A stretch of DNA of 32,000 nt from Deltaproteobacteria bacterium (GTDB taxonomy: Bacteria > Desulfobacterota > BSN033 > UBA1163): assembly GCA_016875195.1 (NCBI GenBank), contig VGRY01000036.1:8889-40888 (forward strand), in the 5' to 3' direction. Position numbers and translations under genes: made by a program. This document shows positions 15,284 through 22,438 of the stretch, in pieces. The notes beneath the pieces were generated by a model. It was not told where the DNA came from. It was given only the letters and a program-made list of their open reading frames with translations, and made no database searches. Each line of letters starts with the position of its first letter. The stretch's first letter is position 1.

Positions 15284-15458
15284 GAAAACCTGACTGTTAA
15301 CGGCAGTGTCAAATCTATGGCTATGGGTAGAGTAGAGTACGGTCAGGCAACGGAAACACGGTATTTCTTTTTTCCTCCCTGACCACAATTTTTCTTGTGC
15401 ACTTTAATGGTTTTTCAAATAGTTTATCCTCTTGAACAAACTTTTCAACTTTAATGAT

Positions 15459-15545
15459 CCCGCCAACCACAAGGTACTTAACGCCGTGTGAGTTCAGCAG
15501 TCTCAAGAAATCTTTGAAGTCTGGATGTAGTTCTATCTGTGCCAT
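15459..15545 (-). pseudogene. truncated nucleotidyltransferase-like gene remnant (cassette C10)
   Basis: MAQIELHPDFKDFLRLLNSHGVKYLVVGG matches the N-terminus of a small nucleotidyltransferase-like family. The similarity stops after VVGG (about 15459) and the rest of the ORF is low-quality sequence. Confidence 0.45.
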
Positions 15546-15687
15546 AAACCATCCTTCGATATATCTCGATTGCATTCAAGCGGTCAGCCTTTCCACGGGA
15601 CAGCCAATATTGTTCTTCTTCCGTAAATTCATCAAGGGAAGAGACAGTAAGTCGCGTTTTATCCAGACGAGGCATCTCAGTATCCAT
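15478..15687 (-). CDS. small conserved hypothetical protein (cassette C10)
   Basis: 69 aa. RBS GAGAGGAA. The pattern LDKTRLTVSSLDE..EEQYWLS....RLNAIE..R...YG....TSRLQRFLE recalls a widespread 60-70 aa family. Its 3' end overlaps the NTase-like frame. Confidence 0.5.
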   Translation of the reverse strand: MDTEMPRLDKTRLTVSSLDEFTEEEQYWLSRGKADRLNAIEIYRRMVYGTDRTTSRLQRFLETAELTRR

Positions 15688-15712
15688 ATCTCTTTATTCC
15701 TCTCATTTTTCC

Positions 15713-15775
15713 CATAACGGATAGGCTCACCGGGAGCCGGATTTCTTAGCGATCCAGTGGTACCGCTTGTTAAGC
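15713..15775 (-). other. attC site of cassette C9 (63 bp)
   Basis: CATAAC-GGATA-GGCTCAC ... GTGGTACC-GCTT-GTTAAGC. R/L box layout with 5-nt spacers. Related to the attCs at 16377 and 19782 (shared GGGAGCCGGATTT core). Confidence 0.75.
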
Positions 15776-16054
15776 CCTCCTTTTCTCTATTAAATACCCC
15801 GACACATATTTATGAATGATGCTGGATATCAGCGTTTGGTAAGGAATCCCCTCTTGAGCAGCAATAACCTGTACTTGATCCAAATCTCTTGATGCCATTC
15901 GAATATTTATTCTCTTGTCTTTTTGCAGTGTATTCCTTGCATACTCTCGAAGTTTTCTAATTTCTGCCCTTGGATTCTTAATAGATTTCCATTCCCCACG
16001 TTCGTATGACTCTAATATATCTTTTTCTTCCTCATCTAACATTGTCTTTTTCAT
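15770..16054 (-). CDS. brnA: BrnA-like (CopG/RHH) antitoxin
   Basis: 94 aa. INIRMASRDLDQVQVIAAQEGIPYQTLISSIIHKYVSG is the typical BrnA C-terminal motif. Lies 1 nt downstream of brnT. Confidence 0.75.
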   Translation of the reverse strand: MKKTMLDEEEKDILESYERGEWKSIKNPRAEIRKLREYARNTLQKDKRINIRMASRDLDQVQVIAAQEGIPYQTLISSIIHKYVSGYLIEKRRA

Positions 16055-16055
16055 T

Positions 16056-16328
16056 TTATTTCCTCACATATTTGTTGGTGGCTTTTCTACTTGGGATGAT
16101 AGTCTTCAAAAATATCTCATCCCCTTCTTGCATATAAGGAACGAGATAGGCATAATCACCAATCTTCACTGTTGCGATTTTTTGCCCTGGATACTTATCT
16201 TGATTTGGGTGGTTAACTATTTCGAGAACGTCTTCCCGTTCCAGCAAGATAACGACTTCTTCAAAACATACTGCTCTGTTTTCCTTCAACCATTCATTCT
16301 TCGCGTTATCCCATTGAAAGACCTTCAT
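16056..16328 (-). CDS. brnT: BrnT-like (DUF497) toxin
   Basis: 90 aa. FQWDNAKNEWLKENRAVCFEEV ... FLKTIIPSRKATNKY matches the BrnT/DUF497 pattern. Confidence 0.7.
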   Translation of the reverse strand: MKVFQWDNAKNEWLKENRAVCFEEVVILLEREDVLEIVNHPNQDKYPGQKIATVKIGDYAYLVPYMQEGDEIFLKTIIPSRKATNKYVRK

Positions 16329-16334
16329 ATGAAG

Positions 16335-16363
16335 AAATTACGACATTGTGTGCCTTTTGTCAA
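16335..16363 (-). promoter_or_regulatory. cassette-internal sigma-70 promoter for brnTA
   Basis: Minus strand TTGACA (16363-16358), 17-nt spacer, TAATTT (16340-16335). The -10 ends 6 nt before the brnT ATG and there is no SD, implying a leaderless or near-leaderless mRNA. Confidence 0.55.
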
Positions 16364-16376
16364 TATGTTTTTTGTG

Positions 16377-16440
16377 GCTTAACACTACGGCTCACCGGTT
16401 GCGGGTTTATTGGCAATCTGGTGGAGCCGCTTGCTAGGGC
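16377..16440 (-). other. attC site of cassette C8 (64 bp), degenerate core
   Basis: GCTTAAC-ACTAC-GGCTCAC ... GTGGAGCC-GCTT-GCTAGGG. The right-hand core reads GcT instead of GTT. Extra G in the right L box (GT[G]GAGCC). Confidence 0.7.
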
Positions 16441-16629
16441 TTATTTTATTGGGTCAATTCCAAGGTCTTTGCATATCTTTCTAGCAAGACCTTCATCGAT
16501 CTCTGTGTGGCGTGGTACGGATGAGCGTTTGTTCAGGCTTCGATTTCCCCACCATGAATGCCGGGAGCCTTCTCTGATGAATTCGCAGCCATGTGCTCGA
16601 AGGTGTTTGAGAAGTTCAGTTCTCTTCAT
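16441..16629 (-). CDS. hicA: HicA-family toxin
   Basis: 62 aa. LLKHLRAHGCEFIREGSRHSWWGN...SSVPRHTEIDEGLARKICKDLGI is the classic HicA pattern. Confidence 0.85.
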   Translation of the reverse strand: MKRTELLKHLRAHGCEFIREGSRHSWWGNRSLNKRSSVPRHTEIDEGLARKICKDLGIDPIK

Positions 16630-16844
16630 GCAGGTACGGCTATCTTCTCTTCAGCGTATTCCGCCCCAGCGGAGGCGATTGCATCTTGGCGATTAAATTC
16701 AATTGCTTCCTTCAAGGTTATCCGCAAGGTTTCGACCAATTCCTGACGGGTACGTTCCTGGCAGTTTACACCTGGAACCTCCTCTATCCACCCTATCCAC
16801 CAATCGCTTTCTTGTTTTATTATTGCGGTATATTCTGTGGCCAT
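16626..16844 (-). CDS. hicB: HicB-family antitoxin (short UPF0150 type)
   Basis: 72 aa. YTAIIKQESDWWIGWIEEVPGVNCQERTRQELVETLRITLKEAIE. RBS AAAGGAGAA. 4-nt overlap with hicA. Confidence 0.8.
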   Translation of the reverse strand: MATEYTAIIKQESDWWIGWIEEVPGVNCQERTRQELVETLRITLKEAIEFNRQDAIASAGAEYAEEKIAVPA

Positions 16845-16865
16845 AGATTGTTCTCCTTTGATTCC

Positions 16866-16893
16866 ATTATAACGGATATTCAGAAATGTTGAA
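16866..16893 (-). promoter_or_regulatory. cassette-internal sigma-70 promoter for hicBA
   Basis: Minus strand TTCAAC (16893-16888), 16-nt spacer, perfect TATAAT (16871-16866), then RBS and the ATG at 16844. Confidence 0.55.
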
Positions 16894-16910
16894 ATATATT
16901 CTTATTCATG

Positions 16911-16999
16911 CCCCAACGATAGAAATAAGGCGCGGGGGCAACCACCCCAACAAAAGGCGACGGGGCCTATCCCCCGTCGCCTTGATTGATTGGTTATGC
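16911..16999 (-). other. attC site of cassette C7 (89 bp) with internal GC-rich hairpin
   Basis: CCCCAAC-GATAG-AAATAAGGCG ... CGCCTT[G]ATTGATTG-GTTATGC. Inner 12-bp stem AAGGCGACGGGG (16954-16965) / CCCCGTCGCCTT (16972-16983). Close relative of the attC at 18578. Confidence 0.8.
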
Positions 17000-17380
17000 G
17001 ATGTTTTCCCTTGTTTTGTTCTCTGGTGAGATCCTTAGAATCAGCAGATGTAAAGCAATAAAGACCATTAATCCGATAAACGATGAACCGAGTAAGAGTG
17101 CCAGACGCTGGACGTTTAGATCTGCTTTCACAACAACGAGGGGTATCATAAAGAACCAGACGATTGTGCCAGAGAACCAATAGACTACGATCCGTTTCCA
17201 TTTTTTCTTTACGTCTTCTAATTCCGTAATATGAGCTGCCGGAATAGTAAATGCAATCACGAATGACAAGGCATCGACCAAATGCACTCGCATTGGAGCG
17301 CCGGACAGTATCAGCGATAAACCAAAGAAGCCTATCGAAAGAGCTACTGATGAGGTAATATGTCTTTTCATTTTTTGCAT
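16994..17380 (-). CDS. small integral membrane protein (about 4 TM), unknown function (cassette C7)
   Basis: The frame of listed ORF 16994..17407 has strongly hydrophobic segments. The start is trimmed to ATG 17380 because upstream codons lie in the neighbouring cassette's attC. No obvious SD. Confidence 0.55.
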   Translation of the reverse strand: MQKMKRHITSSVALSIGFFGLSLILSGAPMRVHLVDALSFVIAFTIPAAHITELEDVKKKWKRIVVYWFSGTIVWFFMIPLVVVKADLNVQRLALLLGSSFIGLMVFIALHLLILRISPENKTRENIA

Positions 17381-17466
17381 AATGAATTGCATAACCTGCG
17401 CGGGCAATCAGCATTGCCCAAGACCTGACGCGGCTAATCCGCGTCAGGTTGATGCTGTTGTTATGT
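17377..17466 (-). other. attC site of cassette C6 (90 bp), branched, with mutated crossover base
   Basis: GCATAAT-GAATT-GCATAAC ... GTT[G]ATGC-TGTT-GTTATGT. Same box design as the attC at 20451. Two internal hairpins (GGGCAAT/ATTGCCC; CCTGACGCGG/CCGCGTCAGG). Left core is AAT, not AAC. Confidence 0.7.
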
Positions 17467-17874
17467 GCTGATATTTATTCTGTAAATATAGGAGTCTTCG
17501 ATAAAGGTCCCATTTATGGTGTTTTTCGAGAATCGAATTCCCGTAATTCCCCTCCCTGTAGATATCGCAATCCTAAGTACGTTGATTAAGGGATTAGAAG
17601 TATCTGCGACCTTGATATCATTCAATGAAATGATTGACTCCGACTCGTCGGCATTCTTGTTCGCTTCCAAAATGCGCTTATAAAAGCTTCTTGGCCCATC
17701 AGTTTTCACCAAAGGTGAAATTACTATCATTTCCCATGTTTTTTCTTCTGGCAGAAATACCCAAAGCGCAGCTTGAACATTTGACAGTGATTCATCAAGC
17801 CGTTCAACAAGCTTCGCCCCAGCATCAATCATCTGCTCCGACAAAACGTCTCTTACCACCAATTCTTTACCCAT
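17461..17874 (-). CDS. conserved hypothetical protein, partner of the HEPN-like gene (cassette C6)
   Basis: 137 aa. AALWVFLPEEKTWEMIVISPLV..DGPRSFYKRI ... RIAISTGRGITGIRFSKNTINGTFIEDSYIYRI. I recall an uncharacterised family of about 120-140 aa with this pattern but no named domain. 22-nt overlap with the upstream gene. Confidence 0.6.
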   Translation of the reverse strand: MGKELVVRDVLSEQMIDAGAKLVERLDESLSNVQAALWVFLPEEKTWEMIVISPLVKTDGPRSFYKRILEANKNADESESIISLNDIKVADTSNPLINVLRIAISTGRGITGIRFSKNTINGTFIEDSYIYRINIST

Positions 17875-18269
17875 AATAAAATCCCCGATCTATTATTTGT
17901 GATTGCTTCAAAAAAGTCCTTTACCGTGGATTCCTCAATGGTATGCTCGTATCTTGCATCTTCAGACCACCGATTTGCCACAGCCCAATTGAGTTTGAAG
18001 TCTTCATCAGTTTTTTCCTTCTCCTGCAACTTCTGCTTTAGGCCTGCCACACCCAATAAATCACTTAACTTATGCGTGTAGGAGGCATTAGCGAGCTGCT
18101 TGTCTGGAAAGTCATGCTCCCTTACCTGCTTAGCGATGCAGGCCTTGATTGCGCATTCCAGCGCATATCCTAGCAAATAGTATGCTCCTTCGTAACATTC
18201 ATTGTCGAGGAGCAATTTTGCTTCCTTAACCCTAACATCCACGAGGGCTTCGAGATCGCTCTTGTTCAT
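17853..18269 (-). CDS. HEPN-like all-alpha protein (cassette C6)
   Basis: 138 aa. GAYYLLGYALECAIKACIAKQV...YTHKLSDLL ... NRWSEDARYEH resembles COG2250/PF05168-type HEPN proteins (assignment from pattern memory). Confidence 0.55.
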   Translation of the reverse strand: MNKSDLEALVDVRVKEAKLLLDNECYEGAYYLLGYALECAIKACIAKQVREHDFPDKQLANASYTHKLSDLLGVAGLKQKLQEKEKTDEDFKLNWAVANRWSEDARYEHTIEESTVKDFFEAITNNRSGILLWVKNWW

Positions 18270-18296
18270 ATTGTTTGACTTACCTTACATTCTTGA

Positions 18297-18379
18297 CATA
18301 ACGCATAAAATCAGGCGTGGGCTACAGGCGACCCCCGATCTGATAGACATCCACCATCGCCTGAATTGCTTAGTTATGT
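18297..18379 (-). other. attC site of cassette C5 (83 bp)
   Basis: CATAAC-GCATA-AAATCAGGCG ... CCA[T]CGCCTGAATT-GCTTA-GTTATGT. Bulged T on the right arm. Identical to the attC at 20170 except for the neighbour-derived left core. Confidence 0.8.
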
Positions 18380-18390
18380 GGGGTTTTATT

Positions 18391-18582
18391 ATGAGTAAAA
18401 CTACTCCGTTTGGATATCACAGATGTCCTAATTGTAAAGAATACGGATCTCATTTTGTCCCACCATCAATGGGAGAACCTGGATTCTTTTATTGCAAGAA
18501 AAACGAGAAGCAACCATGTCCTACTCATGGATATAAGTATGAGCAAGGCTGCGTTGTTTGTGATAAATACTTGTCCACATAA
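18391..18582 (+). CDS. 63-aa zinc-ribbon-like protein, copy A (cassette C5, antisense to the array)
   Basis: MSKTTPFGYHRCPNCKEYGSHFVPPSMGEPGFFYCKKNEKQPCPTHGYKYEQGCVVCDKYLST, with CxxC ... C-x8-C-x2-H ... CxxC. The minus strand of this cassette has only ORFs of 29 aa or less. An alternative ATG lies at 18376 inside the R box. Confidence 0.55.
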   Translation: MSKTTPFGYHRCPNCKEYGSHFVPPSMGEPGFFYCKKNEKQPCPTHGYKYEQGCVVCDKYLST

Positions 18583-18665
18583 CGCTAGAAATAAGGCGCG
18601 GGGGCACTGACCTCCACTAAAAGGCGACGGGACTATTCCCCGTCGCCTTGATTGAGTTGTTAGGG
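18578..18665 (-). other. attC site of cassette C4 (88 bp) with internal GC-rich hairpin
   Basis: CATAAC-GCTAG-AAATAAGGCG ... CGCCTT[G]ATT-GAGTT-GTTAGGG. Inner stem AAGGCGACGGG (18621-18631) / CCCGTCGCCTT (18639-18649). Confidence 0.8.
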
Positions 18666-18716
18666 AATCAATACTCCTTGTGTCCTTTTAGTATCTTCAA
18701 CTGACCCGCGACGGAA

Positions 18717-19772
18717 TTAACGACTTACCTCTCCTTTGGAGGAGAAGAAGAACACCTTAAGGTCCCTTTCCGGGACGAAGTTCCTAACCCGTGACTCGTA
18801 GCGGTTGTTTCCAGTTAGGCGGATTCTCGGATCGAAACAGGTGCTGACCTCTTCATCTGCTTTCTTCTCAATGGTCAGACGAAAGTCTTTTATCGGCCCA
18901 TGCCAGTTATTAGCGGTAGTCAAAATGTAGGAGACCCAAAATCCCCAAGGGCAATCACTACCCATAGCGCCGTTCTTTCTCATCCAAGAGACAAAGCTTT
19001 CGTTGATGCAGGCATGCCTGCGCAAGAACTCTATATCATCACTTTCGCGCGCACAGAACGAACGAAATCCGGCATATGGACCGTAGGAGTGCTTTATAGT
19101 CAACGTTTTGTTAGCGGGGAATCGCTGGGTCCAATGGTATTTAATCGATACTGTCCAATCGGGAAATACAACGTCTGGTTCCGCTTCTATAAAAGCCCTG
19201 AGAATTCCTAAGTCTATCAGTGTCTTCTTATCCGTAGGTTTAAGACGGTCAACAAAGGTGACATAGCGTCTTTTCATGACAGGGTCGAAACCAGATTCGT
19301 ACTTCCCAAAGTCGACAATAGAAATATTCATGTCTGTGAGAATTTGGGTACAGTCCTTTCCTCTTGCGAACGCTTTTACCTCTCGTTTGTAGGGCTCCTT
19401 TTTCCCATCGACCTCTACGATGAAATCGGAGAAGTTTGTCACCGATCGTCCAAGTAGTGCCCACTTATACTCTGGGATAGGAAATGCCACTTCTGTAACG
19501 ATGTCGCTCGTTGACTGGTTCCTAAAATGACAGATCACTTCAACCCTGTCCCTGCTTATGCTTAGTTCTTCTTTGTCAATCGAGATGTCTTTTATGGACT
19601 TGAATTGGAGGCCTGATGGGGTAACTTCTACTGCTGAATCATTGGCACGGGTAGGCTGGCTGAGTGGCATATAGAGGATGAGGAAAGTGGCGCATAATGT
19701 GCAGAAACGAAGAAAGCTAATCTTTTCAGGTAATGGTAATGCAATACCAAATAGGAAAATATGCTTCTTCAT
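18717..19772 (-). CDS. DUF4424-like secreted protein (cassette C4)
   Basis: 351 aa. Signal/TM N-terminus, then ANDSAVEVTPSGLQFKS..DISIDKEELSIS.DRVEV..HFRN.S..D..TEVAFPIP and WTVSIKYHWTQRFPANKTLTIKHSY, as I recall for DUF4424. Confidence 0.6.
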   Translation of the reverse strand: MKKHIFLFGIALPLPEKISFLRFCTLCATFLILYMPLSQPTRANDSAVEVTPSGLQFKSIKDISIDKEELSISRDRVEVICHFRNQSTSDIVTEVAFPIPEYKWALLGRSVTNFSDFIVEVDGKKEPYKREVKAFARGKDCTQILTDMNISIVDFGKYESGFDPVMKRRYVTFVDRLKPTDKKTLIDLGILRAFIEAEPDVVFPDWTVSIKYHWTQRFPANKTLTIKHSYGPYAGFRSFCARESDDIEFLRRHACINESFVSWMRKNGAMGSDCPWGFWVSYILTTANNWHGPIKDFRLTIEKKADEEVSTCFDPRIRLTGNNRYESRVRNFVPERDLKVFFFSSKGEVSR

Positions 19773-19781
19773 TATTATATC

Positions 19782-19844
19782 CCTAACGATAAGCTTCAGT
19801 GGGAGCCGGATTTATCGGCGATCCACTGGAAGCCGTTGTTCTGT
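19782..19844 (-). other. attC site of cassette C3 (63 bp)
   Basis: CCTAAC-GATAA-GCTTCAG ... CT[G]GAAGC-CGTT-GTTCTGT. The C3 ORF stop codon lies inside the site. Confidence 0.8.
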
Positions 19845-20159
19845 GGCTTTCTTGATCTTGAATGATGACTGCCCAAAGAATATCCAACCCACTTGGCCCT
19901 TTTCACCTTGGACCTTTATGGCCATGTAATCCTTCCCATGGCGAATCCGTCTTACTTTCGCGTTAGTGTTGGCCGCAAGTGTAAATATCGGTTTCATTTG
20001 TTTTGTTGGATACGTTTTCCAATCGGTGTAGGCCAGAACTGATTCTTCGGTGAACACGACGTGTTGCCGGTCTTGAACGATGTCGTAGCCAACGAAGGCC
20101 GCGATTCCAACCACTGGAAGTACTACCACTACAATCAATATTGCCCAAATAATCTTCAT
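19812..20159 (-). CDS. membrane-anchored small protein, unknown function (cassette C3)
   Basis: 115 aa. N-terminal TM helix, then a beta-rich domain (KDYMAIKVQGEKGQVGWIFF is SH3b-like by eye). The last ~8-9 residues (from about LPVDRR) are encoded by the attC. Confidence 0.55.
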   Translation of the reverse strand: MKIIWAILIVVVVLPVVGIAAFVGYDIVQDRQHVVFTEESVLAYTDWKTYPTKQMKPIFTLAANTNAKVRRIRHGKDYMAIKVQGEKGQVGWIFFGQSSFKIKKATEQRLPVDRR

Positions 20160-20169
20160 TTAATCGTCA

Positions 20170-20252
20170 CAGAACGCATAAAATCAGGCGTGGGCTACAG
20201 GCGACCCCCGATCTGATAGACATCCACCATCGCCTGAATTGCTTAGTTATGT
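20170..20252 (-). other. attC site of cassette C2 (83 bp)
   Basis: CAGAAC-GCATA-AAATCAGGCG ... GCTTA-GTTATGT. From 20175 onward it is identical to 18302 onward. Confidence 0.8.
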
Positions 20253-20263
20253 GGGGTTTTATT

Positions 20264-20455
20264 ATGAGTAAAACTACTCCGTTTGGATATCACAGATGTC
20301 CTAATTGTAAAGAATACGGATCTCATTTTGTCCCACCATCAATGGGAGAACCTGGATTCTTTTATTGCAAGAAAAACGAGAAGCAACCATGTCCTACTCA
20401 TGGATATAAGTATGAGCAAGGCTGCGTTGTTTGTGATAAATACTTGTCCACATAA
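20264..20455 (+). CDS. 63-aa zinc-ribbon-like protein, copy B (cassette C2, antisense to the array)
   Basis: Peptide identical to copy A. Both alternative reading frames in the ORF track are also identical between copies, showing nucleotide identity. Confidence 0.55.
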   Translation: MSKTTPFGYHRCPNCKEYGSHFVPPSMGEPGFFYCKKNEKQPCPTHGYKYEQGCVVCDKYLST

Positions 20456-20524
20456 CGCTCCGCATAACCGGCTGGCAATGGAGCGCAGCGGAATTACCAG
20501 TCCGAGTTGATGCGGTTGTTGGGC
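20451..20524 (-). other. attC site of cassette C1 (74 bp)
   Basis: CATAAC-GCTCC-GCATAAC-CGGCTGG ... CCAG[T]CCG[A]GTT[G]ATGC-GGTT-GTTGGGC. All three single-base bulges (T20501, A20505, G20509) are on the right arm of the + strand, so the + strand is the recombinogenic bottom strand and the array reads leftward. Confidence 0.85.
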
Positions 20525-20554
20525 GGCATACCGTTGATGCCACGGACCGATGAT

Positions 20555-20899
20555 TCAGCCGATGGCCCGCTCTTTACCCAATAAAAGGATCTTGGCATCA
20601 CCTTTCGCCTGGGCGCTGGCCCAAAACAGATACGGCGCCAAGAACATCATTCCGCCGAAGAAAGCCACAACACCCAGCGCAATTCCTCTACCGGTAAACT
20701 GGTGACGCCAAGCCACCCAGATACCTGAAAGCCCCAAGAAGGTCATAAAATCTAAGTTGAATTGGCCAGACCAAGTCATTTCAGCGATGTTAGAGAAAAA
20801 GACGGGAAGAAGGTTCCATCCATGATTGCTGCCAACAAAAAGCGTGTAACCGGTCAAGCACACAAAAGCCACGACAAGGTAGATGCGGAACACTTTCAT
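20555..20899 (-). CDS. small integral membrane protein (about 4 TM), unknown function (cassette C1)
   Basis: Start set at ATG 20899 (RBS AAAGGAGAG 6 nt upstream); the listed ORF starts at TTG 20917. Hydrophobic throughout. Confidence 0.6.
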   Translation of the reverse strand: MKVFRIYLVVAFVCLTGYTLFVGSNHGWNLLPVFFSNIAEMTWSGQFNLDFMTFLGLSGIWVAWRHQFTGRGIALGVVAFFGGMMFLAPYLFWASAQAKGDAKILLLGKERAIG

Positions 20900-20949
20900 T
20901 TCATACTCTCCTTTCAATTATGTACGGCATTGGGGGATATGCCGCCCAA

Positions 20950-21060
20950 CAATTAATAGACGCAATTCGTATTTTCTGGGAATTGGATCTTCTAATCTTA
21001 GCTTTTTACTCCTTTTCCCTGCTTTTGTCTACGAAATTCTGCAAAAACCGCACAAAATTA
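20950..21060. other. attI region (attI/cassette junction at 20949|20950)
   Basis: Minus strand reads ...G|TTGGGCGGCAT at the junction, the exact partner of C1's R'' box. A possible weak cassette promoter on the minus strand lies further right: TTGCAA (21131-21126), 16 nt, TGCAAT (21109-21104). The extent of attI is not defined. Confidence 0.55.
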
Positions 21061-21089
21061 TTGACCTAATTTCGCGTTTTCCCTATAAT
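21061..21089 (+). promoter_or_regulatory. sigma-70 promoter for intI
   Basis: TTGACC (21061-21066), 17-nt spacer, perfect TATAAT (21084-21089), about 45-55 nt upstream of the intI start. Confidence 0.65.
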
Positions 21090-21133
21090 AGCATAAAATA
21101 CGCATTGCATATATCATCGGTATTTTTGCAAAT

Positions 21134-22438
21134 TTGGAGCCCGAAGTGCCAAATAGGATATTACCCGAGTTTCAGGACTTTCTTATTTCCCGTTCTCTCG
21201 TATCTGCAAAAAATGCGCCTTTTTACGCTCACTGGGTAAGTAGATTCTTTGCATTCTCAAATATCAATCAAGAGCTCGGGTTCAATCTGAAGGTTCAAAA
21301 ATTCTTAAACCAGTTGAAATCTCAAAAGAAAATTGCTGATTGGCAGATCAAACAGGCTGAGGAGGCTCTTCGATTATATTTTCATCATTTTCTGAATGGT
21401 AAAACCTCTACCCTCTCTCCTGAAGAACCACAAAAAAGGGCCATTGATGCCTCCAAGGCTCTTTGTGACATGCGTCAAGCCCTACGTATCAAACATTATT
21501 CTTACAGAACAGAGCGTTCCTATCTTGAATGGGTTGAAAGGTTCTTCGATTACACATCAAAAATAAAGAAAAAGGATGTTCGAGCTGCCGGCTTGGACCC
21601 GGACGATGTAAGAGATTTTCTGAGTTATCTTGCTATGACAAAAAAAGTTTCATCCTCAACACAGAACCAGGCTTTTAATGCACTTCTGTTTCTCTTCAGG
21701 GATGTCCTTAAAGCTGAGCTTGGTGACATGAGTAAAACAGTAAGGGCAAAGCGCGGACAGAAACTTCCGGTTGTTTTATCTCCAGAAGAGATTCAATCTT
21801 TGTTTAAACATATAAAAGGTTTGAATCTTCTGGTTCTTCAGTTACTTTACGGGTCGGGGCTCCGTCTTTTAGAGCTTGCCCGTTTGAGAGTTAAAGACAT
21901 AGATTTCGACCAAAACCTGGTTTTTGTAAGGGGAGGCAAGGGAGATAAGGACAGAACGACAATTTTACCCCAGACCGTAAAGGGCATGCTTAAGAAACAC
22001 CTTGATGAAGTCAAGCAACTTCATGATAAAGATCTTTCTGGAGGATACGGGGAAGTCTATCTTCCAGATGCCCTGGAACGGAAATATCCAAATGCTGTAA
22101 AGGAATGGGGATGGCAGTATGTGTTCCCATCATCAAAGCTTTCTGTTGACCCAAGGAGTGGGAAGATAAGGCGACATCATATCTCCGAAAAGACGATTCA
22201 GAATGCCGTGAAAGAAGCGGCTCAGAAAGCAGGCATTGTCAAGCATGCATCCGTGCATACTCTCAGACACAGCTTTGCCACACACCTTTTGATGAATGGA
22301 GTGAATATCAGGGAGATACAGAATTTACTGGGTCATAAACATGTGGAGACAACGATGATCTACACCCATGTGATAAGGGATATGATCAGTGTTCCCCAAA
22401 GCCCCCTTGATAGCCTTTACAATAAAAAACCACTCTAA
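21134..22438 (+). CDS. intI: integron integrase (tyrosine recombinase) with extended N-terminus
   Basis: 434 aa. Start is TTG 21134, or GTG 21146 after GGAG. Contains the IntI-specific insertion [53 protein letters not shown], colinear with IntI1 [22 protein letters not shown]...DPRSGVVRRHH. Catalytic [12 protein letters not shown] and [16 protein letters not shown]. C-terminal SPLDSL. Confidence 0.93.
   Translation: [434 protein letters not shown]

What the first reader, a model, noticed from the sequence alone, without database searches (positions are those of the whole stretch)
18302..20455. Identical 281-bp cassette at array positions 2 and 5, carrying a zinc-ribbon ORF antisense to the array
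18302-18582 and 20175-20455 are identical by eye, and both overlapping reading frames in the ORF track give identical peptides. The identity starts at the C of the AAC crossover triplet and ends at the AA of the next one, so this is site-specific cassette duplication, not a transposon or segmental duplication. That argues for recent IntI activity. The only plausible ORF (63 aa; CxxC..C-x8-C-x2-H..CxxC) lies on the + strand, opposite to every other cassette gene and to any attI-side promoter. The attC polarity (bulged T18357 on the right arm) matches the rest of the array, so the ORF really is inverted within its cassette. I could not find a convincing promoter for it.
Basis: seen in the sequence. 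Interest (0 to 1): 0.7.

Follow-up and report, generated by a model that had tools for sequence, protein, structure and literature searches.

The report
Duplicated integron cassette with backwards phage gene
A 281-bp integron gene cassette sits twice, letter for letter, in the cassette array of an uncultured deltaproteobacterium; it carries a real but never-annotated small zinc-binding gene of a phage-borne family that points against the array. This is a well-documented example of known integron behaviour rather than a new kind of system.

Summary
Window 18302-18582 and 20175-20455 are 281/281 identical. Identity runs only 2 bases (AA) and 4 bases (CGCT) further, inside the conserved core sites.

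The setting is a chromosomal integron. IntI (21134-22438, +) scores 437 bits on TIGR02249. The attI crossover is at 20949|20950, and at least 9 cassettes run on the minus strand. The repeat occupies positions 2 and 5.

Two independent public assemblies each hold both copies.

The 63-aa plus-strand ORF is a real gene:
- It has 156-269 homologue clusters with invariant C12, C15, H21, P25 and C35.
- pN/pS against the closest homologues is about 0.25.
- No Pfam, NCBIfam or PHROG family covers it.
- All examined homologues lie in phage contexts and none lies next to an IntI.
- The ORF has never been called as a gene in public data.

The attC has the same polarity as the rest of the array, so the ORF is inverted inside its cassette. 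The whole cassette has not been flipped.

No convincing promoter was found.

Best reading: IntI-mediated "copy-and-paste" of a cassette with a well-folding attC, carrying a probably silent gene of likely phage origin. Both the duplication and antisense cassette genes are known phenomena, so this is a new member of a known kind and of modest interest.

The parts
18302..18582 (-). Cassette copy at array position 5 (281 bp). On the array strand it reads TTATGT, antisense ORF, attC ending in G.
   Evidence: Identical to 20175-20455. Boundaries at the AA|C crossovers. Its 5' hexamer is complementary to its own R'' box.
20175..20455 (-). Cassette copy at array position 2 (281 bp).
   Evidence: Both copies are present in the independent contigs L027 and L028.
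18296..18379 (+). attC of copy 1, written as the bottom strand. R' is ACATAAC (18296-18302) and R'' is GTTATGT (18373-18379). T18357 is bulged and A18364/5 is the likely second extrahelical base.
   Evidence: Inverted repeat I2. DNA folds. pfold 0.95. Orientation test.
20169..20252 (+). attC of copy 2. R' is the hybrid box ACAGAAC and T20230 is bulged.
   Evidence: Inverted repeat I3. Fold and pfold 0.78.
18391..18582 (+). 63-aa ORF, copy 1: MSKTTPFGYHRCPNCKEYGSHFVPPSMGEPGFFYCKKNEKQPCPTHGYKYEQGCVVCDKYLST. The stop codon TAA is the last three bases of the cassette.
20264..20455 (+). The same 63-aa ORF, copy 2.
   Evidence: offset 1873.
18380..18383 (+). GGGG, a possible Shine-Dalgarno element 7 nt before the ATG and directly after the attC hairpin. 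The same element lies at 20253-20256.
   Evidence: Read from the sequence; inference only.
18284..18311 (+). Weak sigma-70-like match CTTACA-16-TAAAAT. The -10 lies inside the attC and the -35 lies in the neighbouring cassette, so only copy 1 has it.
   Evidence: 9 of 12 matches. The region has fewer such matches than shuffles (7 against 12.2), so this is not evidence of a promoter.
18583..19786 (-). Cassette 4 (DUF4424 protein, 18717-19772), lying between the two copies.
19787..20174 (-). Cassette 3 (115-aa membrane-anchored protein, 19812-20159), lying between the two copies.
20456..20949 (-). Cassette 1 (114-aa membrane protein, 20555-20899). It was inserted at attI after copy 2.
20944..20950 (+). 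attI crossover GCCCAA|C. This is GTTGGGC on the array strand.
   Evidence: Sequence. It is complementary to the R'' box of cassette 1.
21134..22438 (+). Integron integrase intI. Public gene calls start at 21146, giving 430 aa.
   Evidence: TIGR02249 437 bits, and Pfam Phage_integrase plus Phage_int_SAM_4.
21061..21089 (+). PintI-like promoter TTGACC-17-TATAAT.
   Evidence: 11 of 12 matches.
17395..18301 (-). Cassette 6 (HEPN protein plus a 137-aa partner), downstream neighbour of copy 1. It shares the 5' hexamer TTATGT with the zinc-ribbon cassette.

Best explanation
The 281-bp unit is a genuine integron gene cassette in the sedentary chromosomal integron of an uncultured deltaproteobacterium.

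Duplication. The cassette was duplicated by the integron integrase in a 'copy-and-paste' event. The folded bottom strand of the cassette was excised from one sister chromosome after replication. The circle was then re-inserted at attI of a chromosome that still held the original. A later insertion, cassette 1, pushed the new copy to position 2. The result is c1 - Zn - c3 - c4 - Zn - c6.

Cargo. The cassette carries a 63-aa two-site zinc-binding protein. Site 1 is C12/C15/H21/C35 and is invariant in the family. Site 2 is C44/H47/C56/C59 and is lineage-specific. The protein belongs to an uncharacterised family otherwise found in the early or replication regions of uncultivated phages. The gene is therefore most likely of phage origin.

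Orientation. The gene lies antisense to its own attC and to the array. Pc-driven transcription would therefore make only its antisense RNA. With no recognisable promoter of its own, the gene is most likely silent or weakly expressed stored cargo.

What is shown: the identity and its boundaries, the integron context, the attC polarity, the reality and phage distribution of the gene family, and the absence of a consensus promoter.

What is inferred: the copy-and-paste route, the phage origin, and silence in situ. A nucleic-acid-binding role for the protein is a guess, based on the basic or zinc-ribbon character of the family and its sub-threshold similarity to bL32.
For: - Exact 281-bp identity, bounded within the core sites.
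- IntI above the curated threshold.
- Every cassette starts with TT and ends with G on the array strand. Cassettes 1-7 and 9 each have a 5' hexamer complementary to their own R'' box; cassette 8 departs at two positions.
- Both copies occur in two independent assemblies, and other contigs break about k-1 bases into the repeat.
- Bulged bases lie on the arm opposite AAC in the Zn attC and in attC c1, c3 and c8, as expected for bottom strands (PMC5027507).
- The same-orientation alignment beats the flipped one, 278 vs 195, as it does for every control attC.
- The Zn attC has the highest in-situ predicted folding probability in the array: 0.95 and 0.78, against 0.00-0.82 for the others.
- Gene family: 156 clusters, 269 with a profile, invariant C/C/H/P/C, pN/pS 0.25-0.28.
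- Phage contexts of homologues include DNA polymerase A, AAA_24, DUF3310, PDDEXK, HNH and QueC/PTPS/GTP cyclohydrolase I, in tight co-directional small genes. There are 13 IMG/VR loci and a RuvC/ligase/transglycosylase region in L006.
- No IntI lies in any homologue locus.
- Only 1 hit was found in 185,579 species-representative genomes.
- GC3 of the ORF is 0.30, against 0.53-0.62 for four flanking chromosomal genes.
Against: - No homologous cassette was found elsewhere, so selection on the ORF in a cassette context could not be measured.
- The closest phage homologues share only 66-77% identity over about 40 residues. The phage-to-integron direction of transfer is therefore plausible but not shown.
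- Promoter scanning used an E. coli-type consensus, which may not fit this organism. In vibrios, in-silico promoter prediction for cassettes correlated poorly with measured activity (PMC11014356). Silence is therefore unproven.
- The upstream partner site needed to excise copy 1 alone (attC of c4) has a low predicted folding probability (0.01 in situ). This does not favour single-cassette excision from the present array.
- All assemblies are short-read. The two-copy path is the minimal path through the junctions, not a single-molecule observation.
Confidence: 0.72

Rival explanations
1. The whole cassette is upside down. It was a normal cassette (ORF followed by its attC) that IntI inserted through the top strand of its attC, flipping gene and attC together.
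For: Top-strand recombination gives exactly this gross layout: antisense ORF followed by an attC at the 3' end of the unit (geometry worked out from Fig. 1D of PMC5027507). The R boxes of this site are perfectly symmetric (ACATAAC/GTTATGT). Both strands fold equally well: MFE -13.9 vs -13.8 kcal/mol and pfold 0.95 vs 0.94.
Against: The bulged T18357, and the further unpaired bases of the stem, lie on the arm opposite the AAC of the + strand, as in the other attCs of the array. In the given orientation the site aligns better to 6 of 7 other attCs (278 vs 195), which is the same behaviour as the controls. The arms resemble those of attC c4/c7 position by position, with A at the place of their extrahelical G (read from the sequence).
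Confidence: 0.08
2. The two copies arose by insertion of a multi-cassette circle, not by single-cassette copy-and-paste. The circle (Zn-c3-c4 or c3-c4-Zn) entered either at attI by IntI or by RecA-dependent homologous recombination within the Zn cassette (Campbell-type).
For: The end product would be identical, with identity ending at cassette boundaries. attC c4 folds poorly in situ (pfold 0.01), which makes excision of copy 1 on its own less likely than excision of a larger block. Direct repeats of 281-287 bp are adequate RecA substrates (established knowledge).
Against: Nothing discriminates against it in the sequence. The circle itself still has to be made by IntI, so integrase activity is still implied. 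Experimentally observed duplications were single-cassette attI x attC events (PMC8024014).
Confidence: 0.25
3. The duplication is an assembly artefact or a mixture of strains, and no single chromosome carries two copies.
For: All available assemblies are short-read metagenomes. Several contigs end inside the repeat, which shows that assemblers struggle here.
Against: Contigs from two different samples carry c1-Zn-c3-c4-Zn (L028/L035) and Zn-c3-c4-Zn-c6 (L027). The four junctions c1>Zn, Zn>c3, c4>Zn and Zn>c6 cannot be placed on one linear chromosome with a single copy.
Confidence: 0.05
4. The antisense gene is expressed and functional in situ. This could be from a promoter spanning the attC and junction (-10 TAAAAT at 18306-18311) or from a non-sigma-70-type promoter. 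Its duplication would then reflect selection for its product or for its effect on neighbouring cassettes.
For: The reading frame is intact with all family-invariant residues in both copies. A GGGG lies 7 nt before the ATG. Antisense promoters exist in cassettes of Vibrio superintegrons and can silence neighbours (PMC11014356). Toxin-antitoxin cassettes carry their own promoters (PMC13108822).
Against: No consensus promoter is shared by both copies; the only match has its -35 outside the cassette and is at noise level. Two identical young copies say nothing about selection. GC3 of 0.30 suggests poor adaptation to the host.
Confidence: 0.25
5. The ORF is a chance open frame, and the cassette is 'gene-less', acting through its sense strand as a promoter, terminator or small RNA.
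For: There is no ORF longer than 29 aa on the sense strand. A weak terminator-like hairpin lies on the - strand at 18530-18514. Gene-less cassettes with promoter activity are known (PMC11014356).
Against: The + ORF has hundreds of homologues with invariant zinc ligands and pN/pS of about 0.25. DNA similarity to homologues starts exactly at the ATG. Terminator-like hits are at background frequency (7 against 5.6 expected). Rfam finds nothing.
Confidence: 0.04

Closest known systems
'Copy-and-paste' cassette duplication in integrons (Escudero et al. 2015 as cited in, and experimentally observed by, Souque et al. 2021, eLife, PMC8024014)
   Same: An identical cassette is present twice in one array, with the new copy on the attI side and other cassettes between the copies (aadB-blaVEB-1-dfrA5-aadB compared with Zn-c3-c4-Zn). 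Boundaries fall at the attC crossover. [quoted passage not shown]
   Different: This case is in an environmental deltaproteobacterial chromosomal integron. One further cassette was inserted afterwards. No selection for the duplicated gene is apparent, and the event is inferred rather than observed.
Cassettes whose genes do not depend on Pc: toxin-antitoxin cassettes with their own promoter, some in reverse orientation, in the Vibrio cholerae superintegron (Richard et al. 2024, PMC13108822)
   Same: The gene is not aligned with, or does not depend on, Pc, and sits within a canonical cassette in a sedentary chromosomal integron.
   Different: It is a single small gene with no toxin-antitoxin partner and no promoter was recognised. 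That some TA cassettes are reverse-oriented is partly my own recollection; the paper text seen only says orientation is shown in its Fig. 1B.
Cassette insertion in the wrong orientation by top-strand recombination (Nivina et al. 2016, PMC5027507)
   Same: The gene faces the promoter, and the gross layout of antisense ORF followed by attC is the same.
   Different: In that case the attC polarity would be flipped as well. Here the polarity matches the array, so this mechanism is not supported.
Gene-less or promoter cassettes of Vibrionaceae superintegrons (Blanco et al. 2024, PMC11014356)
   Same: A short cassette with no ORF on the sense strand. An antisense transcription unit could interfere with neighbours.
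   Different: This cassette does hold a conserved protein gene on the antisense strand, and no promoter activity has been shown.
Generic zinc ribbons, bacterial ribosomal protein bL32 in particular
   Same: CPxCGE...H knuckle. The profile hits bL32 chains at E about 1e-3. Five of 33 family members hit Pfam Ribosomal_L32p at E of 0.007 or weaker. One member is auto-named 'ribosomal protein L32' by JGI. Many members have a lysine-rich N-terminus.
   Different: All scores are below the curated thresholds and the window protein itself does not hit. The second knuckle is replaced by PPS-x-GE-x-GFF-x-C. The genomic context is phage, not a ribosomal operon. This is a resemblance, not membership.

Membership tests
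Integron (platform) | An integron-type tyrosine recombinase (IntI) with the IntI-specific additional domain | tested here: met
   TIGR02249 integron integrase scores 437.2 bits against a cut-off of 265 and covers model positions 2-315 of 315. Pfam Phage_integrase and Phage_int_SAM_4 also match.
Integron (platform) | attI next to intI, with a divergently oriented array of cassettes separated by attC sites | tested here: met
   The attI crossover GCCCAA|C lies at 20944-20950. Nine delimitable cassettes run down to 15718 and all other genes are on the - strand. attC hairpins have RYYYAAC/GTTRRRY boxes. Sites were delimited by hand, because no attC covariance model was available and Rfam has none.
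Integron gene cassette (the 281-bp unit) | Bounded by the G|TT (AA|C) crossovers, with one attC at the 3' end and a 5' hexamer complementary to its own R'' box | tested here: met
   On the array strand the unit begins with TTATGT and ends in an attC (ACATAAC...G). Duplicate identity is bounded by the core sites.
Integron gene cassette (the 281-bp unit) | attC bottom strand on the same strand as in the rest of the array (extrahelical bases on the arm opposite 5'-AAC-3') | tested here: met
   T18357 is bulged on the 3' arm of the + strand, as in c1, c3 and c8. Criterion from PMC5027507. Orientation alignment test 278 vs 195.
Integron gene cassette (the 281-bp unit) | Usual feature, not strictly defining: a promoterless ORF in the same direction as Pc | tested here: not met
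   The only conserved ORF is on the opposite strand, and no sense ORF exceeds 29 aa.
IntI-mediated copy-and-paste duplication | Excision of the bottom strand, replication, and re-insertion at attI by the integrase | not testable with these tools
   Only the product is visible. It is compatible with this route and also with insertion of a multi-cassette circle.
Unnamed phage CCHC zinc-ribbon family (this report, alignment A1) | C-x2-C-x5-H-x3-P-x9-C core with G28, G31 and F32 (consensus RCPNCGEYGxHFVPPSxGEPGFFxC) | tested here: met
   The window protein has all invariant and near-invariant residues. phmmer E-values reach 7e-14.
Unnamed phage CCHC zinc-ribbon family (this report, alignment A1) | Actual zinc binding and a zinc-ribbon fold | tested here: inconclusive
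   The AlphaFold2 model has mean pLDDT 68.5, with residues 11-40 at about 80-89. Foldseek against PDB and BFVD gives nothing below E=1. Metal binding is not testable here.
Ribosomal protein bL32 (Pfam PF01783) | Score at or above the Pfam gathering threshold | tested here: not met
   The window protein has no hit. Five of 33 relatives hit only at E>=0.007. PDB profile hits have E of about 1e-3.
Toxin-antitoxin cassette | Two adjacent genes (toxin and antitoxin) within the cassette | tested here: not met
   A single 63-aa gene fills the cassette, and there is no TA family hit.

The most novel reading that the evidence does not exclude
The backwards gene is not dead cargo. It would be a phage-type zinc-ribbon protein that the host keeps and expresses from the attC or junction region (or that phage infection switches on), acting against or in response to phage. 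Alternatively, its convergent transcription unit would work as a roadblock that tunes expression of the cassettes behind it. A related reading is that the cassette is a 'selfish', highly recombinogenic cassette that multiplies within arrays. In addition, because its relatives sit in ordinary phage genomes, it would offer a rare before-and-after pair for asking how an attC becomes joined to a gene, here in the 'wrong' orientation.
Probability: 0.12. Interest if true: 0.6.

Novelty: new member of a known kind. Interest (0 to 1): 0.35.

Why it matters
The finding is a clean natural example of integron "copy-and-paste" in an uncultured environmental bacterium, and it is reproducible across samples. 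It also shows that a cassette can carry a gene antisense to its own attC.

It brings out a widespread family of small phage zinc-binding proteins that is absent from Pfam, PHROGs and NCBIfam. The family has hundreds of clusters. The member here has been missed by every gene caller in public data.

If cassette-borne relatives closer to a phage progenitor were found, the pair could inform the unsolved question of how cassettes are made. On present evidence it does not change how integrons are understood.

Tried and rejected
- Rfam scan of the whole window: no family at gathering score.
- tblastn of the protein and of a family consensus against 50,697 GenBank phage records: no match, even at E=1.
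- blastn of the cassette against PLSDB plasmids: no match.
- Foldseek of the AlphaFold2 model against PDB and BFVD: nothing below E=1.
- PHROGs: no family for the zinc-ribbon core. Only fused C-terminal domains of two relatives hit.
- The first related-loci run, with the broad alignment, failed for lack of a conserved stretch. It was repeated with a core alignment.
- Neighbourhood clustering around 12 of the 25 homologue loci (the script located the homologue ORF in only these): no gene family is shared beyond near-duplicate contigs, so synteny gives no functional clue.
- A home-made attC finder (core boxes plus constrained folding) missed most true attCs of the window and called hairpins in phage loci. 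I discarded it as neither sensitive nor specific. A covariance model from only 8 heterogeneous sites was judged not worth building.
- Purine skew of the attC was uninformative (purine fraction 0.50-0.51).
- Exact look-ups of the 63-aa and 68-aa products: not on record.
- The upstream in-frame ATG at 18376 (68 aa) was rejected as the start, because homologues begin at MSKT.
- The overlapping 66-aa TTG frame (18410-18610) was rejected. It runs out of the cassette into the next attC, and I did not search it for homologues.
Full report
**1. The observation**

The two stretches 18302-18582 and 20175-20455 are identical at all 281 positions. The longest exact run is 18300-18586 against 20173-20459, which is 287 bp. 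The repeat finder reports the pair as the only long repeat of the window.

The two extra bases on the left (AA) and the first extra base on the right (C) are the conserved AAC triplets of the flanking recombination sites. The remaining GCT on the right is three bases, and AACG also occurs in most other sites of this array. Outside these bases the flanks are unrelated. Identity therefore ends within the 7-bp core sites on both sides, and the two copies lie in two different contexts.

**2. The setting**

ORF 21134-22438 (+) is an integron integrase. It scores 437 bits on TIGR02249 against a cut-off of 265, over the full model, and carries the Pfam catalytic and SAM-like domains. An 11/12 sigma-70-type promoter lies before it at 21061-21089.

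Cassettes run from the attI crossover (GCCCAA|C, 20944-20950) towards lower coordinates, with their genes on the - strand. I set boundaries at every AA|C (G|TT on the array strand):

| Cassette | Coordinates | Content |
|---|---|---|
| c1 | 20456-20949 | membrane protein |
| c2 | 20175-20455 | zinc-ribbon cassette |
| c3 | 19787-20174 | 115-aa protein |
| c4 | 18583-19786 | DUF4424 protein |
| c5 | 18302-18582 | zinc-ribbon cassette |
| c6 | 17395-18301 | HEPN protein plus partner |
| c7 | 16917-17394 | membrane protein |
| c8 | 16383-16916 | HicB/HicA |
| c9 | 15718-16382 | BrnT/BrnA-like |
| c10 | ends at 15717 | decayed tenth unit |

These assignments rest.

Every unit starts with TT and ends with G on the array strand. 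Cassettes 1-7 and 9 each have a 5' hexamer complementary to their own R'' box, which is what a circularised cassette requires. Cassette 8 departs from this at two positions. "Positions 2 and 5" is therefore correct.

**3. Is the duplication real?**

The window comes from an NCBI metagenome-assembled genome labelled "Deltaproteobacteria bacterium" (protein accessions MBM4340204, MBM4340217 and MBM4340221; 50.6-kb contig). The same locus occurs in several JGI samples.

- Contig Ga0194126_10011648 carries intI-c1-Zn-c3-c4-Zn and stops at the far edge of the repeat.
- Contig Ga0194113_10001792, from another sample, starts at the edge of the repeat and carries Zn-c3-c4-Zn-c6 and onwards.
- Both contigs hold two full, identical copies.
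- Other contigs stop about 28 or 123-125 bases into the cassette, as de Bruijn assemblers do at repeats.

An artefact is therefore unlikely, although no single long read has been seen.

**4. The ORF**

The 63-aa + strand ORF (18391-18582 and 20264-20455) is the only sizeable frame in the unit, and the sense strand has nothing above 29 aa. An exhaustive phmmer search found 156 cluster representatives at E<=1e-3, with a best E-value of 7e-14. A profile search found 269.

The alignment has invariant C12, C15, H21, P25 and C35, and near-invariant G28, G31 and F32. The consensus is RCPNCGEYGxHFVPPSxGEPGFFxC, followed by highly variable tails. In the window protein the tail adds C44-x2-H47 and C56-x2-C59, a probable second metal site. 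Some relatives (P0007, and the L008 protein) have a comparable second site.

DNA similarity to the two closest relatives begins exactly at the ATG and is absent from the attC. Over the first 36 codons, pN/pS is 0.25-0.28 with pS of 0.63-0.77. The frame is therefore a real gene under purifying selection at family level. The 68-aa start (ATG at 18376) is not supported, because relatives start at MSKT.

No Pfam, NCBIfam or PHROG family covers the core. The only resemblances are sub-threshold hits to generic zinc ribbons and to ribosomal protein bL32. The AlphaFold2 model is confident only for residues 11-40 and finds no structural neighbour.

The exact product is not on record in any public gene call. 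The NCBI accession numbering appears to leave no slot for it (my inference).

**5. Where the family lives**

The three closest relatives on long contigs lie in tightly packed, co-directional blocks of small genes. Their neighbours include DNA polymerase A, AAA_24, DUF3310, PD-(D/E)XK nuclease, HNH, Lar-like and queuosine-pathway genes.

Thirteen further loci come from IMG/VR viral contigs. The single hit among 185,579 species-representative genomes is a region encoding RuvC-like, transglycosylase and DNA-ligase proteins, at the end of a contig of a Nitrosotalea MAG.

No homologue locus encodes an IntI, and no neighbour gene is conserved across loci. GenBank phages and PLSDB plasmids hold no detectable member.

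GC3 of the window ORF is 0.30, against 0.53-0.62 for four flanking chromosomal genes. The gene is thus most likely of phage origin. The direction of transfer is inferred.

**6. Orientation: inverted gene or inverted cassette?**

This is the crux, because insertion through the top strand of an attC also yields "antisense ORF followed by attC". Only the polarity of the attC's unpaired features tells the two cases apart.

According to Nivina et al. 2016, extrahelical bases of the recombinogenic bottom strand lie on the arm opposite its 5'-AAC-3' (PMC5027507). With the R boxes constrained to pair, the + strand of the Zn attC has T18357 (and further unpaired bases deeper in the stem) on the 3' arm and none on the AAC arm. 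The + strands of attC c1, c3 and c8 show the same pattern.

Counting from the outer end of the R'' box, T18357 is base 23 and A18364 is base 16 (my count, from the sequence). The paper describes extrahelical bases G16 and T23 in attC-aadA7; whether the two numbering schemes coincide is my assumption.

The Zn site aligns better to 6 of the 7 other attCs in the given orientation than flipped (arm scores 278 vs 195). Every other attC behaves the same way as a control.

**7. Expression**

The consensus scan finds no promoter common to both copies. The one + strand match (CTTACA-16-TAAAAT, 18284-18311) has its -35 in the neighbouring cassette and is at background level, with 7 matches in the region against 12.2 in shuffles.

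A GGGG lies 7 nt before the ATG, immediately after the attC hairpin.

Transcription from Pc would produce the antisense strand of the gene. Silent or weak expression is therefore the most likely state, but it is unproven. Consensus scans are a poor guide for cassettes even in vibrios (PMC11014356).

**8. Mechanism of duplication**

The array Zn-c3-c4-Zn has the same form as the experimentally observed "copy-and-paste" product aadB-blaVEB-1-dfrA5-aadB. That product arises because only the bottom strand is excised and a replication step preserves the donor array (PMC8024014). Cassette 1 must have entered at attI afterwards.

As a proxy for recombinogenicity, I computed the probability that each bottom strand pairs its AAC and GTT triplets. 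The Zn attC scores 0.95 (copy 1) and 0.78 (copy 2), the highest in-situ values in the array. The others score c6 0.82, c1 0.67, c3 0.11, c9 0.10, c8 0.08, c4 0.01 and c7 0.00.

This fits the cassette being the mobile one. However, the low value for attC c4, the partner needed to excise copy 1 alone, leaves room for movement as part of a larger block or for a Campbell-type homologous insertion of a multi-cassette circle. These routes give the same product and all require the integrase at some step.

Zero differences in 281 bp point to a recent event or to gene conversion. IntI differs by one residue between some of the public contigs and the window, while the cassettes do not differ.

**9. Comparison with what is known, and verdict**

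Cassette duplication in chromosomal integrons, cassettes with genes independent of Pc, and antisense transcription units in cassettes are all described.

Three things are new here:
- this particular cassette;
- the recognition of an uncharacterised, unannotated phage zinc-ribbon family;
- the demonstration that the gene is antisense to its own attC, rather than the cassette being flipped.

This is a new member of a known kind, of modest interest (0.35). The most novel reading still open is that the antisense gene is expressed and functional, or that the cassette is a self-amplifying element. I put that at about 12%.

Noticed in passing
window 16917-17394 (cassette 7): The longest ORF here (16902-17414, 170 aa, - strand) runs across both flanking attC sites and looks spurious. 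A hydrophobic membrane-protein frame (about 16994-17371, - strand; a 132-aa product in JGI calls) fits inside the cassette.
   Followed up: partly
window 16377-16439 (attC of cassette 8): The R'' box reads GCTAGGG where GTT is expected (GTT to GCT), and predicted folding probability is low (0.08). This may be a decaying site that welds the HicAB cassette to its neighbour.
   Followed up: partly
window 15718-18301: Three of the distal cassettes carry toxin-antitoxin or defence-like pairs, all on the array strand: HEPN plus a 137-aa partner (c6), HicB/HicA (c8) and BrnT/BrnA-like (c9). Cassette 6 has only 32 bp before its first gene, so any promoter for it would have to lie in the zinc-ribbon cassette upstream or be Pc.
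   Followed up: no
window 15290-15717: The last unit of the array looks decayed. It has an 84-aa frame (15321-15575, -) with a nucleotidyltransferase-like motif (my reading, no family search run), further coding-like sequence upstream in another frame, and only a short, poor attC-like end near 15297-15335.
   Followed up: no
window 20956-20978 and 21092-21114: A 23-nt inverted repeat (83% complementary, 113 nt apart) brackets the attI-PintI interval. It could be a binding site pair for IntI or for a regulator.
   Followed up: no
window 21134-21450 (IntI residues 1-105): IntI has an N-terminal extension of about 105 residues before the region matched by TIGR02249. Pfam reports two stretches of the SAM-like domain, which suggests a duplicated N-terminal domain.
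   Followed up: no
window 16915-16996 vs 18581-18662, and 15705-15771 vs 19774-19840: The attC sites fall into sequence subfamilies (c4/c7 at 79% identity; c3/c9 at 72%, with c8 similar). The c4/c7 type has an internal competing hairpin and very low predicted probability of the recombinogenic fold in situ.
   Followed up: partly
L027, L028, L031-L038 (public contigs of the same locus): Public short-read assemblies of this organism break at the repeated cassette, about 28 or 123-125 bases into it. IntI differs by one residue between some of the public contigs and the window, while the cassette copies are invariant.
   Followed up: partly
L006 9923-10111 (Nitrosotalea MAG JAHEYD010000003.1): This is the only family member found in 185,579 species-representative genomes. 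It lies in a phage-like block (RuvC-like, lytic transglycosylase, ATP-dependent DNA ligase) at the end of a contig binned to an ammonia-oxidising archaeon. It could be a provirus or a mis-binned phage.
   Followed up: partly
P0001, P0003, P0162, P0184, P0230 (relatives): The zinc-ribbon core is fused to diverse C-terminal modules in different phages (phrog_10600, phrog_2384, PF18066, PF15891, PF08797). This suggests a portable binding or targeting domain.
   Followed up: no
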